Shown: positions 33,487 through 40,814, counted from the stretch's first letter. The stretch: 64,000 nucleotides of DNA from Eledone cirrhosa (GCA_964016885.1 OZ024745.1:16492001-16556000), one strand, 5' to 3'. The notes: a model not told the origin generated them from the letters alone. Numbers and translations are program-made.

Positions 33487-33787
33487 ACTCCCTCTCTGCT
33501 CTTTACTTCTGCTACGGTTTTTATTTTGCTGAATCTACGTTCTGTACTCTTGTATATATTATTTTTTCTCCCTTACCTCCCCTTATATTTCACCTTTTCC
33601 TATGCCCCCCCCCCCCATATATTCTCTTTACCTTGCCCTTCACATACCTATGTATATGTGTGTATATATATATATAAATATATATATATATATATGTCTG
33701 TATATATATATATATATATATATATATATATATATATATATATATATATATATATAGTTATGTAATAAACAACATAAGGCAATTATT

Positions 33788-33843
33788 CCATTTACCAGTG
33801 GTTTCTTAAAAGCAAAAGATTTTGCTTTCAATCCTCAGAATGA
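33788..33843 (-). ncRNA. hammerhead ribozyme (mirror of 40671-40726)
   Basis: Reverse complement of TCATT-CTGAGGA-stem II-GAAA-CC-ACT-GG-TA-AATGG. Confidence 0.85.
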
Positions 33844-35148
33844 AAAAATCCTGGTCTGTTTATTGAATTTGGATTTTAAAAACAAAAATGCAATATATAT
33901 GAAAGTGAGGCTGGAGAAGGAAGAAGGAAAGGAAAAATAAAATAAAACTACACATGCAAACACACACACAAAAACACGCACACTCACACACAAATACATA
34001 CATACACACACACATATATATATATATATATATATATATATATATATACATATATATATATATATATATAAATATATATATATATATATATATATATATA
34101 TATATATATATATATATATATATATAAATATATATATATATATATATATATAAATATATATATATATATATATATATATACATATACATACACTTATACA
34201 TACACACACACACATATATACACACATATATATGTGTATATAAATACACACAAACACATACATATACACATATATACATACGCACATAAATATCAACACA
34301 TCCATACATACACATACATATATACAACCACACACACATATATACACACATACAGACACATAGAAACATAAATATAAATATATATACATACACACATATA
34401 CATACATATATATATATATACATATACATATATATATATGTGTGTACAAGCATACACATACACAAACATAGCCATTCACACATACATACACATACATAAA
34501 TGCACTCCTCTACATATTCACACACCCAAATAAATATAAGAATAAAAAATAATTATATATATATATAATAAAAAAAAAGACATTTTTGACAGCGATACAA
34601 ACTGAAGGTAACTGGACAGACACGCGTGGTAAGTAATACACACAAATGCACGTATACATACGTACGAAATAGTAAATACATACACACACTCTCGCACATA
34701 AATATACATATACAAATACATAAACACATACATACACATACACAAATACATGCACAAACACGCACACGCACACGTATACAATTATACACACACATATACA
34801 CACACATGTATATGTAATTATATACAAATACATATATATATATATATATACATAAATATAAAAATACGCACACACACATATATGTATACATACACACACA
34901 CATAGACATACATAGCTATACAATTATACACATACAAATACGTACATATCATAAACACGCACAACCAAATACAAACACACACACACACATACATATATAT
35001 ATATATATATATATATATATATATACATACATATACATACACATATACATGTGTGTGTCTGTAAAACTCAGTCTTAGATTATTCATATGAACCTTACATA
35101 TATATAGTAGTAAGGTAATAAAGTTATAAGCAACATAAAGCAATTATT

Positions 35149-35204
35149 CCATTCACCAGTGGTTTCTTAAAAGCAAAAAATGTTTCCTTCAATCTTCAGA
35201 ATGA
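35149..35204 (-). ncRNA. hammerhead, probably inactive (UG cleavage site); mirror of 39379-39434
   Basis: Core CTGAAGA and GAAA are present, but the site reads TG and stem II is eroded. Confidence 0.6.
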
Positions 35205-35348
35205 AAAAAACCTGGTCTATCTACATATACATACATATACACACACAAATATATATATATATATATATATATATATATATATATATATATATATATATAT
35301 ATATATACAATATTAAATAAATGGAAACTATATTTATAAAACCATATT

Positions 35349-35414
35349 TATTTCATTATATATATTTCAGGGATAACATATCAACAATATGCCATGCCTT
35401 CTTCAGACAAAATA
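35349..35414 (-). ncRNA. minimal hammerhead ribozyme (mirror of 39197-39262)
   Basis: TATTTTGT-CTGAAGA-AGG...CCT-GAAA-T-ATAT-A-TA-ATGAAATA. Confidence 0.85.
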
Positions 35415-36770
35415 CAATATAAACAGTTTTATAGATAAATAGATTCGACATACCGTAACAACATCGACTTGCATTTGAGAAGGTTGATTTGGCAGCGAAA
35501 AAATTGTACACAGAGAGAAAGAAAGAGAGAAAAGGCAGAAAACGAAGAAAAAGAAGAAAAAGAAGAAATGCATGGAACAAAATAGAGAGATAGAAAGATA
35601 GATAAAGAGAAGAACTTCATGTAAAGAAACAGAGAGAGATATATATATAGAGAGAGAGAGGAAATAGAGATAGATACATATATATAGAAAACTAGGTAGT
35701 GGGACGTCTGTTGAGTAAACGTATCAATGATACATTTATTTATTTATTTATTTATTTAGCTCTAGTATTAATGTAAGGGAGATATATGGAGAGAAACCAG
35801 CTGTTATATAGAGAGAAAAAAATATATAGAGAGAAAAAATTTAAAAATAACCAGACATAGGCGAGGCGTAAAAAACCCTATGTTTTAATGTAGAGGTATT
35901 AGTATTTATAAAAACCAGCCACTATATTGTAAATATCAGTATTCCTGAATGAGACATGTATCCATAAAGTGTGAAAATTAATGATCTTATGTTTAGTTTT
36001 TTAAAAAAATTCATATGTTTATGTGATAACTACAAACATCTATGTGAATTTACATGATCAACTCTGCAAACCCTAAGTTCACGGAAAACATTCTCATTGT
36101 GGCATAAAAATTTAAGTATACATATATGTGTATATATATACACACAAATATATATAGAGTCAATATTACTATTCCTGTCTTTACTCTACAAGATTATCTA
36201 TCAAGCAGAAATAGAGAGCAGATTTCAATATACTAATAAAAATATATATCAGAAACAAAACTAAAAAATAACAATAATAATAATAAGTAATAATAAAATA
36301 GAAAACTAAAAAAATATTACGAAAGAATATTACATATTAAAAATATTACATATTAAAAAATATTAAAAATAAAAATATTAGAAAATACTACAATAATAAA
36401 AATAAAAATAAAAATAAACCACAAAGATCAACCCTTCAAAATCAATTGACAATATATTGCCAAGTTCATTATAAGCATCAGAGTCGAAAAACAGATAAAG
36501 CCAAAAATTATCTATCAAATCGCATCTAGCAAAGATCATTTCAAAAAGTTTAGGATGCCCATTTGGTCTACATGTGTTCTTATATTTAATATAGAAGTTT
36601 ATCTAGTGTAACGTTTATTCGAAATATTTGGAGCATCAACTTTTAGGGTAGCTTAATTTTTCATGAAGAATGTTTAAATAAAAATAAAAATAAAAATAAA
36701 AAGAATAAAAAGAAGGAATCAAAGATTTATCGGCTTGTTTCCCATATAATTATAAATCAAACTAAATATA

Positions 36771-37844: not shown

Positions 37845-39196
37845 TATATTTAGTTTGATTTATAATTATATGGGAAACTAGCCGATAAATCTTTGATTCC
37901 TTCTTTTTATTCTTTTTATTTTTATTTTTATTTTTATTTAAACATTCTTCATGAAAAATTAAGCTACCCTAAAAGTTGATGCTCCAAATATTTCGAATAA
38001 ACGTTACACTAGATAAACTTCTATATTAAATATAAGAACACATGTAGACCAAATGGGCATCCTAAACTTTTTGAAATGATCTTTGCTAGATGCGATTTGA
38101 TAGATAATTTTTGGCTTTATCTGTTTTTCGACTCTGATGCTTATAATGAACTTGGCAATATATTGTCAATTAATTTTGAAGGGTTGATCTTTGTGGTTTA
38201 TTTTTATTTTTATTTTTATTATTGTAGTATTTTCTAATATTTTTATTTTTAATATTTTTTAATATGTAATATTTTTAATATGTAATATTCTTTCGTAATA
38301 TTTTTTTAGTTTTCTATTTTATTATTACTTATTATTATTATTGTTATTTTTTAGTTTTGTTTCTGATATATATTTTTATTAGTATATTGAAATCTGCTCT
38401 CTATTTCTGCTTGATAGATAATCTTGTAGAGTAAAGACAGGAATAGTAATATTGACTCTATATATATTTGTGTGTATATATATACACATATATGTATACT
38501 TAAATTTTTATGCCACAATGAGAATGTTTTCCGTGAACTTAGGGTTTGCAGAGTTGATCATGTAAATTCACATAGATGTTTGTAGTTATCACATAAACAT
38601 ATGAATTTTTTTAAAAAACTAAACATAAGATCATTAATTTTCACACTTTATGGATACATGTCTCATTCAGGAATACTGATATTTACAATATAGTGGCTGG
38701 TTTTTATAAATACTAATACCTCTACATTAAAACATAAGGTTTTTTACGCCTCGCCTATGTCTGGTTATTTTTAAATTTTTTCTCTCTATATATTTTTTTC
38801 TCTCTATATAACAGCTGGTTTCTCTCCATATATCTCCCTTACATTAATACTAGAGCTAAATAAATAAATAAATAAATGTATCATTGATACGTTTACTCAA
38901 CAGACGTCCCACTACCTAGTTTTCTATATATATGTATCTATCTCTATTTCCTCTCTCTCTCTATATATATATCTCTCTCTGTTTCTTTACATGAAGTTCT
39001 TCTCTTTATCTATCTTTCCATCTCTCTATTTTGCTCCATGCATTTCTTCTTTTTCTTCTTTTTCTTCGTTTTCTGCCTTTTCTCTCTTTCTTTCTCTCTG
39101 TGTACAATTTTTTCACTGCCAAATCAACCTTCTCAAATGCAAGTCGATGTTGTTACGGTATGTCGAATCTATTTATCTATAAAACTGTTTATATTG

Positions 39197-39262
39197 TATT
39201 TTGTCTGAGGAAGGCATGGCATATTGTTAATATGTTATCCCTGAAATATATATAATGAAATA
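39197..39262 (+). ncRNA. minimal hammerhead ribozyme
   Basis: TATTTTGT-CTGAGGA-AGG...CCT-GAAA-T-ATAT-A-TA-ATGAAATA. Its core differs from the mirror copy only at the free N7 position. Confidence 0.85.
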
Positions 39263-39378
39263 AATATGGTTTTATAAATATAGTTTCCATTTATTTAATA
39301 TTGTATATATATATATATATATATATATATATATTTGTGTGTGTATATGTATGTATATGTAGATAGACCAGGTTTTTT

Positions 39379-39434
39379 TCATTCTGAAGATTGAAGGAAA
39401 CATTTTTTGCTTTTAAGAAACTACTGGTGAATGG
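39379..39434 (+). ncRNA. hammerhead, probably inactive (UG site)
   Basis: TCATT-CTGAAGA-...-GAAA-CT-ACT-GG-TG-AATGG. Confidence 0.6.
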
Positions 39435-40670
39435 AATAATTGCTTTATGTTGCTTATTACTTTATTACCTTACTACTATATATATGTAAGGTTCATATGA
39501 ATAATCTAAGACTGAGTTTTACAGACACACACATGTATATGTGTATGTATATGTATGTATATATATATATATATATATATATGTATGTGTGTGTGTGTGT
39601 TTGTATTTGGTTGTGCGTGTTTATGATATGTACGTATTTGTATGTGTATAATTGTATAGCTATGTATGTCTATGTGTGTGTGTATGTATACATATATGTG
39701 TGTGTGCGTATTTTTATATTTATGTATATATATATATATATATGTATTTGTATATAATTACATATACATGTGTGTGTATATGTGTGTGTATAATTGTATA
39801 CGTGTGCGTGTGCGTGTTTGTGCATGTATTTGTGTATGTGTATATATGTGTTTATGTATTTGTATATGTATATTTATGTGCGAGAGTGTGTGTATGTATT
39901 TACTATTTCGTACGTATGTATACGTGCATTTGTGTGTATTACTTACCACGCGTGTCTGTCCAGTTACCTTCAGTTTGTATCGCTGTCAAAAATGTCTTTT
40001 TTTTTTATTATATATATATATAATTATTTTTTATTCTTATATTTATTTGGGTGTGTGAATATGTAGAGGAGTGCATTTATGTATGTGTATGTATGTACGT
40101 GTGTATATATGCATGATTGTGTGCATGTATGTATGTATGTATGTATGTATGTATATGTATGTGTGAATGGCTATGTTTGTGTATGTGTATGCTTGTACAC
40201 ACATATATATATATGTATATGTATATATATATATATATATGTATGTATATGTGTGTATGTATATGTATTTATATTTATGTTTCTATGTGTCTGTATGTGT
40301 GTATATATGTGTGTGTGGTTGTATATATGTATGTGTATGTATGGATGTGTTGATATTTATGTGCGTATGTATATATGTGTATATGTATGTGTTTGTGTGT
40401 ATTTATATACACATATATATGTGTGTATATATGTGTGTGTGTGTATGTATGAGTGTATGTATATGTATATATATATATATATATATATATATATATGTGT
40501 GTGTGTGTGTATGTATGTTTTTGTGTGTGAGTGTGCGTGTTTTTGTGTGCGTGTTTGCATGTGTAGTTTTATTTTATTTTTCCTTTCCTTCTTCCTTCTC
40601 CAGCCTCACTTTCATATAGATTGCATTTTTGTTTTTAAAATCCAAATTCAATAAACAGACCAGGATTTTT

Positions 40671-40726
40671 TCATTCTGAGGATTGAAAGCAAAATCTTTT
40701 GCTTTTAAGAAACCACTGGTAAATGG
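40671..40726 (+). ncRNA. hammerhead ribozyme
   Basis: TCATT-CTGAGGA-TTGAAAGCAAAA-TC-TTTTGCTTTTAA-GAAA-CC-ACT-GG-TA-AATGG. Confidence 0.88.
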
Positions 40727-40814
40727 AATAATTGCCTTATGTTGTTTATTACATAACTATATATATATATATATATATATATATATATATATATATATAT
40801 ATATATATATACTA

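What the first reader, a model, noticed from the sequence alone, without database searches (positions are those of the whole stretch)
33756..40758. 7-kb palindrome carrying three hammerheads per arm from two element families
Seen: each 3.3-3.4 kb arm has GIY-YIG, a ~1.4 kb UTR and an HHR (39197). It then continues past a (TA)n tract through a second family's HHR (39379), a 1.3 kb low-complexity body and a third HHR (40671). The arms differ by SNPs, repeat lengths and a ~60 bp indel near 34490/40100. Inference: a read-through composite transcript (3' transduction of one PLE into another) was copied twice in opposite directions. Palindromes this long are usually unstable.
Basis: partly seen in the sequence, partly recalled or inferred. 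Interest (0 to 1): 0.7.

Follow-up and report, generated by a model that had tools for sequence, protein, structure and literature searches.

The report
Penelope insertion mirrored with its neighbours
The window holds a 7-kb mirror-image stretch with three hammerhead-ribozyme motifs per arm; it is a truncated Penelope-type jumping gene whose mirror half was likely copied on the spot and ran on into older element debris next door, an oversized form of a known insertion pattern.

Summary
The palindrome is in the sequence: arms 33757-37182 and 37433-40757, 18 substitutions in 3,255 columns (0.55%), 7 indels, 250-nt spacer, three type I hammerhead motifs per arm (0 in 60 shuffles). The endonuclease has the motifs of the Hydra clade of Penelope-like elements. 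(1) The centre is rearranged: ORF segment X lies on +, the next segment Y only on -, joined by a 4-nt microhomology; this fits a snap-back join followed by loss of 113 nt from the right arm. (2) An older inverted copy of the 'body' (32412-33202, 2% diverged) is joined head-to-head to another Hydra-type fragment just left of the palindrome. With the family-A insert removed, these form an older palindrome around hammerhead B1. So B1-body-B2 was probably already resident, and the left arm is likely a local inverted copy of the new insertion plus 1.45 kb of flank (about 0.5), not a remote read-through RNA copied twice (about 0.2). A 'second family with a 1.3-kb body' is not supported. No listed read bridges the locus-specific junctions. 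Head-to-head Penelope arms are well known; the overshoot into flank is the only new aspect.

The parts
33757..37182 (-). Left arm: inferred local inverted copy of the family-A insert (Z, UTR, hammerhead A) plus B1, body and B2
37433..40757 (+). Right arm: family-A 3' part (to 39303) followed by inferred resident flank (39304-40757)
37183..37302 (-). ORF segment Y (linker with CxC of the CxCX5C motif), present only on the minus strand; 113 nt of it are missing from the right arm
   Evidence: natural Y-Z joint in 340 raw reads of X20 and one X4 contig
37299..37432 (+). ORF segment X, directly upstream of Y in intact elements; single copy; starts at the 4-nt microhomology GGTT (37299-37302) and ends with a 7-nt remnant of the original stem (37426-37432)
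   Evidence: X = residues 495-536 and YZ = 537-704 of P0001; adjacent within -10..+4 residues in 45 of 47 homologs matching both, of 151 examined; natural X-Y joint in X4 and X5 contigs
37433..37844 (+). Segment Z: GIY-YIG endonuclease end of a Hydra-clade PLE (family A); mirror 36771-37182
37845..39196 (+). Family-A 3' UTR, about 1.35 kb, with microsatellites
   Evidence: multi-copy depth in the measurable bins
39197..39303 (+). Hammerhead A (core at 39205, AUA triplet) and tail; natural end of family A; mirror 35308-35414
39304..39334 (.). (TA)n tract, inferred right half of the family-A target site; mirror 35249-35307
39365..39476 (+). B1: family-B terminal fragment with hammerhead motif (core at 39384), G at the cleavage position; mirror core at 35199
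   Evidence: differs from the X20 read majority at 6 listed sites incl. 39429
39477..40496 (+). Low-complexity body (CA/TA/TATG mosaic), low depth at its start; no evidence that it is a family-B feature
40497..40757 (+). B2: family-B terminal fragment with intact-looking hammerhead (core at 40676, GUA triplet) and tail; mirror core at 33838
40758..40811 (.). Outer (TA)n tract, right
33678..33756 (.). Outer (TA)n tract, left; inferred fusion of the left target half and the end of the copied strand
32412..33202 (-). T: older inverted copy of body 39707-40496; keeps the 66-nt block; 14 of 742 columns differ from the right arm, 14 of 684 from the left; ends in (TA)n
33203..33660 (+). C: 5'-truncated GIY-YIG end and UTR of another Hydra-type family, joined head-to-head to T; first Cys of the CxxC motif lost

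Best explanation
A 5'-truncated Hydra-clade Penelope-like element (family A) sits in a (TA)n tract among older element fragments, and its mirror arm was likely made on the spot, at insertion, by the new cDNA end folding back and DNA synthesis running on through the insert and 1.45 kb of resident flank. Steps: (1) shown: family A ends at 39303 and (TA)n follows; segments X, Y, Z are contiguous in intact copies. (2) inferred: the pre-insertion site read T | C-UTR-(TA)n-B1-body-B2-(TA)n. (3) inferred: the right-hand DNA end primed reverse transcription from the family-A tail to the start of X. (4) inferred: the cDNA 3' end paired with a 4-nt match 123 nt back on the same strand and primed DNA-templated synthesis, which copied Y, Z, UTR and tail and, because the cDNA is continuous with the chromosome, B1, body and B2. 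(5) inferred: the copy stopped in the long (TA)n behind B2 and joined the left (TA)n end, TA repeats being their own complement. (6) inferred: later, 113 nt were deleted from the right arm starting 7 nt inside the stem, which widened the spacer from 123 to 250 nt and would make the palindrome more stable; both arms then gathered substitutions. The six hammerheads are passengers; nothing here needs them to cut.
For: Removing the insert leaves an older inverted repeat (792 columns, 95.7%) whose spacer starts exactly at C's 5' end and holds B1; the same layout, an inverted copy of downstream DNA at the 5' junction of a + strand PLE, occurs at 5993-8449. T is 1.9-2.0% from both arms while the arms differ by 0.4% over that span, so the body was at this locus before the palindrome. 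The body start is low-depth in 4 of 4 runs, which makes a chance neighbour unlikely. The family-A part looks young: four listed contigs of depth 28-863 match 37446-37766 and 38063-38154 with 0 differences, whereas B1 departs from the X20 read majority at 6 listed sites in about 70 nt. All 5 other clear PLE ORF fragments and both LINE ORF sets in the window lie on +, like the right arm. In 5 of the 8 other inverted pairs inspected the left arm ends in or beside a (TA)n/(CT)n tract while the right arm runs on into unrelated DNA, so mirror arms here need not start at a tail. Literature: self-priming proposed for head-to-head Penelope arms (PMC3846280, passages); self-annealed 3' ends priming inverted duplications at L1 insertion sites (10.1101/2024.12.14.628481, section 9); one-arm deletions widen palindrome spacers (PMC10766186, passages).
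Against: Both arms end at the same base, exactly at the family-B tail, after passing five shorter TA tracts of 19-31 nt; that is what RNA priming predicts. B2 carries the read-majority letter at all 6 sites where B1 differs, and B1's G at the cleavage position would let an RNA run through. Substitutions are uneven: 3 of 1,445 near the centre, 15 of 1,810 outside (p = 0.018). A link between C and B1 is not shown: C's UTR does not resemble the DNA upstream of B2 (48 of 300 shuffles score as high), and 0 of 4 distant loci had a hammerhead behind the endonuclease, so C's lack of one proves little. The 4-nt match is short, and the X-Z junction has no microhomology. A PLE protein cuts and extends both strands in vitro (PMC11167929), which favours two-cDNA models. 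No empty-site allele and no read over the locus-specific junctions was seen.
Confidence: 0.5

Rival explanations
1. One reading: a read-through RNA from a remote locus (family A running on through B1, body and B2) was primed at the family-B tail from both ends of a cut (TA)n site, and the two cDNAs were joined head to head at the 4-nt match; Y was skipped by a template jump or deleted later.
For: Both outer ends fall on the family-B tail; B2 matches the family majority, B1 has a non-cleaving G; a PLE protein extends both strands and uses uncleaved RNA (PMC11167929); captured spacers of 0.9-1.5 kb before the last pLTR and trans-mobilisation between pLTRs are described in Adineta (PMC3846280); uneven arm divergence fits two templates.
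Against: It must treat as coincidence that an older copy of the same low-depth body lies 550 nt away, head-to-head with C, in just the geometry expected if the right arm's body is C's downstream DNA. The same Adineta paper found no cross-mobilisation between its two PLE types. No donor locus was seen (no genome held).
Confidence: 0.2
2. Host DNA event after insertion: family A inserted first; later a break or replication template switch near its 5' end folded back and duplicated 3.4 kb in inverted orientation, ending at a self-complementary (TA)n. The PLE enzymes took no part in the duplication.
For: Same geometry as the best explanation; short inverted matches with short spacers seed such events in yeast (PMC10766186); a few positions are shared by both arms but rare in the family (38512, 38647).
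Against: The fold-back point coincides with the element's 5' truncation, the usual place of PLE inverted arms (PMC8557442); 0 differences from multi-copy contigs over about 410 nt leave little time between insertion and duplication (upper bound 0.7%); head-to-head pairs recur at PLE fragments across the window.
Confidence: 0.12
3. Local RNA: after family A inserted, a transcript of this very locus ran through B1 and the body, was primed at the B2 tail by a family-B protein, and the cDNA was inserted at the adjacent (TA)n and joined to the resident copy at the 4-nt match.
For: Explains both the resident flank and the exact end at the B2 tail; PLE proteins may nick their own terminal repeat (PMC11167929).
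Against: Needs transcription of a truncated copy without its promoter and insertion within 2 kb of its source; no evidence of either.
Confidence: 0.1
4. Assembly artefact: two haplotypes or paralogues joined in inverted orientation, or a chimeric read.
For: 0.55% difference, mostly transitions, plus microsatellite length changes is what two haplotypes could show; no listed record bridges the locus-specific junctions.
Against: The flanks beyond the outer (TA)n tracts are unrelated, X and Y are each single, and the join rests on 4 nt; a chimeric read would give identical arms; both arms carry private changes relative to T; eight other inverted pairs of 77-99% identity lie in the window.
Confidence: 0.06

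Closest known systems
Hydra clade of C-terminal EN+ Penelope-like elements (Craig et al. 2021, PMC8557442)
   Same: C-terminal GIY-YIG, CxCX5C linker, CxxC and CxH around the conserved E and N, no CxxC inside the GIY-YIG core, hammerhead at the 3' end, (TA)n targets.
   Different: Only the last 220 codons are present; the 3' UTR is about 1.35 kb; RT motifs could be seen only in homolog P0001.
Head-to-head PLE insertion units with an inverted 5'-truncated copy (PMC8557442 Fig. 2 legend; PMC3846280)
   Same: Long copy plus inverted copy joined at the 5' junction, 3' ends outward in microsatellite.
   Different: The mirror arm is 3.4 kb, longer than the surviving direct copy of the element (2.0 kb), and includes 1.45 kb beyond the element's own tail; centre has lost 113 nt on one side.
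Adineta Pen1 (captured 0.9-1.5 kb spacer before the last pLTR) and Pen3a trans-mobilisation (PMC3846280)
   Same: Non-element DNA of similar length between an ORF end and a terminal hammerhead-bearing repeat.
   Different: Here the terminal repeat is of another family than the ORF and the extra DNA appears to be resident flank.
L1-associated inverted duplications and 5' inversions (10.1101/2024.12.14.628481)
   Same: Short microhomology at a fold-back junction beside a new retroelement insertion; local genomic DNA duplicated in inverted orientation.
   Different: The two L1 duplication examples are on the end that was not reverse-transcribed; here the copy would start in the cDNA. No poly(A), target duplication not readable in (TA)n.
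Animal non-LTR retrozymes (10.64898/2026.07.22.740005, part 1 of 5 read)
   Same: Non-coding DNA between two type I hammerheads.
   Different: Not tandem, the two hammerheads differ by 10%, one has a non-cleaving triplet, and the body is not the usual continuation of family B.

Membership tests
Hydra-clade PLE (family A) | GIY-YIG endonuclease at the C-terminus of an RT ORF | tested here: met
   ORF stops after the endonuclease; X, Y, Z match residues 495-704 of the 714-aa RT-bearing P0001
Hydra-clade PLE (family A) | CxCX5C linker motif | tested here: met
   C35, C37, C43 of the YZ translation, nearly invariant in 25 aligned sequences; definition
Hydra-clade PLE (family A) | CxxC and CxH either side of conserved E and N; CCHH absent | tested here: met
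   C133, C136, E139, N151, C160, H162; no CxxC between the two halves of the GIY-YIG core
Hydra-clade PLE (family A) | Hammerhead motif and (TA)n target | tested here: met
Hydra-clade PLE (family A) | DKT and RWK motifs of the RT; placement in an RT tree; length under 3 kb | not testable with these tools
   RT is not in the window and no genome is held; DKT is seen only in homolog P0001
Neptune-clade PLE | CX2-5CxxC linker and CCHH motif | tested here: not met
   linker is CxCX5C and the core lacks CxxC; my working label 'Neptune' in the notebook was wrong
Head-to-head PLE insertion unit | Inverted 5'-truncated copy joined at the 5' end | tested here: met
Head-to-head PLE insertion unit | Inverted copy confined to the element's own 3' part | tested here: not met
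   arms extend 1,455 nt beyond the family-A tail
Head-to-head PLE insertion unit | Target-site duplication | tested here: inconclusive
   both ends lie in (TA)n
Non-autonomous family B / retrozyme with 1.3-kb body | Body regularly follows the hammerhead; near-identical flanking hammerheads; tandem units | tested here: not met
3' transduction (read-through RNA) | Donor locus elsewhere with the same junction; RNA across it | not testable with these tools
   no genome; no RNA holder listed
Active hammerhead ribozyme | Self-cleavage | not testable with these tools
   cores and stems present; B1 has G at the cleavage position, non-cleaving by the NUH rule (recalled)

The most novel reading that the evidence does not exclude
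Hydra-clade PLEs build their mirror arm by DNA-templated snap-back synthesis that can overshoot the element and duplicate kilobases of neighbouring chromosome in inverted orientation, ending at the next long (TA)n. This happened twice in succession at one (TA)n site here (C made T; family A made the 3.4-kb arm). PLE inverted arms would then be made from DNA, not from a second RNA, and PLEs would be a routine source of local inverted duplications.
Probability: 0.3. Interest if true: 0.6.

Novelty: new variant of a known kind. Interest (0 to 1): 0.33.

Why it matters
How Penelope-like elements make their inverted arms is stated as unresolved in the papers read (PMC8557442, PMC3846280, PMC11167929). 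A mirror arm that contains DNA from beyond the element separates the two main models: if that DNA is resident flank, the arm was copied from DNA; if it has a donor elsewhere, two read-through RNAs were used. This locus leans to the first and names a simple genome-wide test. It also shows a natural long palindrome with the one-sided central deletion expected to stabilise it. As a single locus without read support or an empty allele it is a lead, not a result; the parts themselves (Hydra PLE, hammerheads, head-to-head arms) are known.

Tried and rejected
Whole genome not held, so donor locus, copy number and empty site could not be searched. Rfam at gathering threshold: 0 hits. Pfam: no family for the endonuclease pieces. 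Folding single hammerheads: not better than shuffles. Reads were laid once, on 37186-39530 only, with 4 of 22 runs; several repeat stretches were skipped and 38766-39081 has almost no depth; neither the body beyond 39530 nor the outer ends were laid; only part of each table was shown. Family-B core not found in metagenome contigs (0). Four distant loci: 0 of 4 with a hammerhead, none with an inverted arm; two look like the same sequence. C-UTR against B2 upstream: no similarity. Earlier findings by place and by sequence: none. Considered and dropped: Neptune clade (motifs fit Hydra); a pure twin-priming inversion or a 'leapfrog' template jump for the centre (possible, but a later one-sided deletion explains the 7-nt stem remnant more simply); simple fold-back with no later change (would leave X and Y on one strand); left arm as the resident copy (leaves T and C unexplained and is opposite to all other ORF fragments). 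One substitution listed at 37432 was an alignment-edge artefact and was dropped before the count of 18. Six paper searches gave no description of a PLE mirror arm that includes downstream flank; the library lacks most subscription papers and I saw no supplements or figures, where such cases may be shown.
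Full report
OBSERVATION. The window is AT-rich animal-type DNA crowded with microsatellites and retroelement fragments; no genome is held for it. The unique arms are 33757-37182 and 37433-40757, each followed outward by (TA)n, with a 250-nt spacer. They differ at 18 of 3,255 columns (0.55%; 14 transitions) and by 7 indels, among them a 66-nt block at 40088-40153 that the left arm lacks. A type I hammerhead scan finds three cores per arm; 60 shuffles gave none on the right arm and 0.03 per window against 10 observed. Rfam gave no hit at its thresholds and single motifs fold no better than shuffles; five family-A copies show 3 of 17 pairs with two-sided change.

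WHAT THE ELEMENT IS. The ORF end matches residues 537-704 of a 714-aa RT-endonuclease protein and 4,897 representatives at E <= 0.001. It has a CxCX5C linker, CxxC and CxH around the conserved E and N, and no CxxC inside the GIY-YIG core: the stated marks of the Hydra clade, which targets (TA)n and carries hammerheads (PMC8557442, section 11). Family A ends about 50 nt behind its hammerhead, at 39303; copies at 29.7 kb and 4.7 kb stop at the same tail and are followed by TA. So the arms do run 1,455 nt past the element.

THE CENTRE. Three ORF segments are contiguous in intact elements in the order X-Y-Z: X is residues 495-536 of P0001, X and YZ abut within -10..+4 residues in 45 of 47 homologs that match both, of 151 examined, and reads show the natural X-Y joint (contigs of X4, X5) and Y-Z joint (340 raw reads of X20, one X4 contig). 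In the window X (37299-37432) lies on +, Y (37183-37302) only on -, Z on both. X and Y meet at a 4-nt microhomology; X ends with 7 nt that are also the start of Y, then joins Z without homology. The simplest history (inference): the right copy was X-Y-Z, the left Y-Z, with a 123-nt loop; 113 nt were later deleted from the right arm starting 7 nt inside the stem. One-arm deletions that widen the spacer are described as stabilising palindromes (PMC10766186, passages).

THE 'SECOND FAMILY'. B1 and B2 differ at 10 of 95 columns, twenty times the arm divergence. At 6 listed sites B1 departs from the majority of X20 reads and B2 carries the majority letter; one is the cleavage position, G in B1, A in 557 of 591 X20 reads. 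Depth falls 34-, 80-, 117- and 89-fold from the B1 bin to the next bin in the four runs. This is the last bin of the stretch, repeats were skipped and summed depth is no copy number, but it suggests that family-B ends are abundant and rarely continue into this body. B1 and B2 are best read as two separate short family-B ends with low-complexity DNA between.

THE NEIGHBOURS. 550 nt left of the palindrome lies a third body copy, T (32412-33202, minus), 14 of 742 columns from the right arm and 14 of 684 from the left, where the arms differ at 3 of 688. It keeps the 66-nt block, so the left arm lost it. T is joined head to head to the 5' end of C, a fragment of another Hydra-type family on + (33203-33660), whose (TA)n is the left end of the palindrome. 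With the insert taken out, T and the right arm's body form an older inverted repeat whose spacer begins at C and holds B1. That is the usual layout of a PLE insertion with an inverted copy at its 5' junction (PMC8557442), and it recurs at 5993-8449. It follows (inference) that B1-body-B2 of the right arm was resident, that family A inserted into the (TA)n between C and B1, and that the left arm is a local copy. The family-A part looks young: four listed multi-copy contigs match about 410 nt without a difference (upper bound 0.7%). All 5 other clear PLE ORF fragments and the LINE ORFs lie on +. In 5 of 8 other inverted pairs the left arm ends at a microsatellite while the right arm continues.

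MECHANISM. Most likely (0.5): reverse transcription from the right target end reached X; the cDNA end folded back on the 4-nt match; DNA-templated synthesis copied the insert and went on along the same strand through 1.45 kb of flank; it stopped in the longest (TA)n and joined the left end. Self-priming has been proposed for head-to-head Penelope arms (PMC3846280) and self-annealed ends give inverted duplications at L1 sites (10.1101/2024.12.14.628481, section 9). Against it: both arms end exactly at the family-B tail after passing five shorter TA tracts; B2 looks intact and B1 non-cleaving; substitutions are fewer near the centre (3 of 1,445 against 15 of 1,810, p = 0.018); a PLE protein extends both strands in vitro (PMC11167929); a C-B1 link is not shown. 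No listed read or contig bridges the locus-specific junctions (tables partly shown), so reality rests on internal evidence: unrelated outer flanks, single X and Y, private changes in both arms.

COMPARISON AND VERDICT. Head-to-head inverted copies, hammerheads in terminal repeats, captured spacers and (TA)n targeting are all described for PLEs. Three earlier AI notes of this scan reached the same general view for small palindromes in other genomes (unchecked, not support). Six paper searches found no account of a mirror arm that includes downstream flank; figures, supplements and most subscription papers were not seen. Papers seen: PMC8557442 passages, outline and section 11; PMC11167929 parts 1-2 of 4; PMC3846280, PMC4209133, PMC10766186, PMC9977147 passages; 10.1101/2024.12.14.628481 passages and section 9; 10.64898/2026.07.22.740005 part 1 of 5. 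The NUH cleavage rule is recalled. Verdict: real in the sequence, a new variant of a known kind, interest 0.33; 0.6 if DNA-templated overshoot proves general.

Noticed in passing
window 5993-8449: Penelope/Poseidon-type RT-endonuclease fragment on + (6277-7346) with a 360-nt, 99% identical inverted copy of downstream DNA (8090-8449) at its 5' junction; no hammerhead found in the arm.
   Followed up: partly
window 4297-4978: Head-to-head pair of family-A-like terminal fragments; hammerhead core intact at 4700, altered in the left copy.
   Followed up: partly
window 11071-13446: Inverted repeat of 728 nt (95%) with 931-nt spacer and no recognised ORF; left arm ends in (CT)n/(TA)n, right arm continues; a small palindrome at 12353-12433 has a direct repeat at 12687-12725.
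   Followed up: partly
window 9212-9355, 22855-22991, 23693-23977, 43752-44332, 50090-50458: Further short palindromes; in the first four the left arm ends at or near (TA)n and the right arm runs on; 9212-9355 mirrors the 5'-most part of a Hydra-type ORF fragment; 23693-23977 stops inside a hammerhead core that is whole on the right (23975).
   Followed up: partly
whole window: All clear retroelement ORF fragments outside mirror arms are on the + strand (PLE pieces at 6277, 9384, 28325, 33203, 42534; LINE ORFs 46387-49842 and 51819-55241), a strand bias that may mark an intron or a small-RNA cluster.
   Followed up: no
window 5380-5467 (-) and 61789 (-): Two more hammerhead-like motifs of other families; the first has a long stem II insert, the second is weak.
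   Followed up: no
window 40847-41197: Right flank of the palindrome is itself a head-to-head pair of pieces related to 4970-5349.
   Followed up: no
window 39161-39318 in runs X1, X4, X5, X20: The family-A hammerhead and tail reach roughly 5- to 50-fold the depth of the endonuclease region, so very short terminal stubs dominate this family.
   Followed up: no
window 42259-43459: Hydra-type element with terminal repeat, N-terminal piece, large internal deletion and an inverted terminal piece on its 3' side.
   Followed up: no
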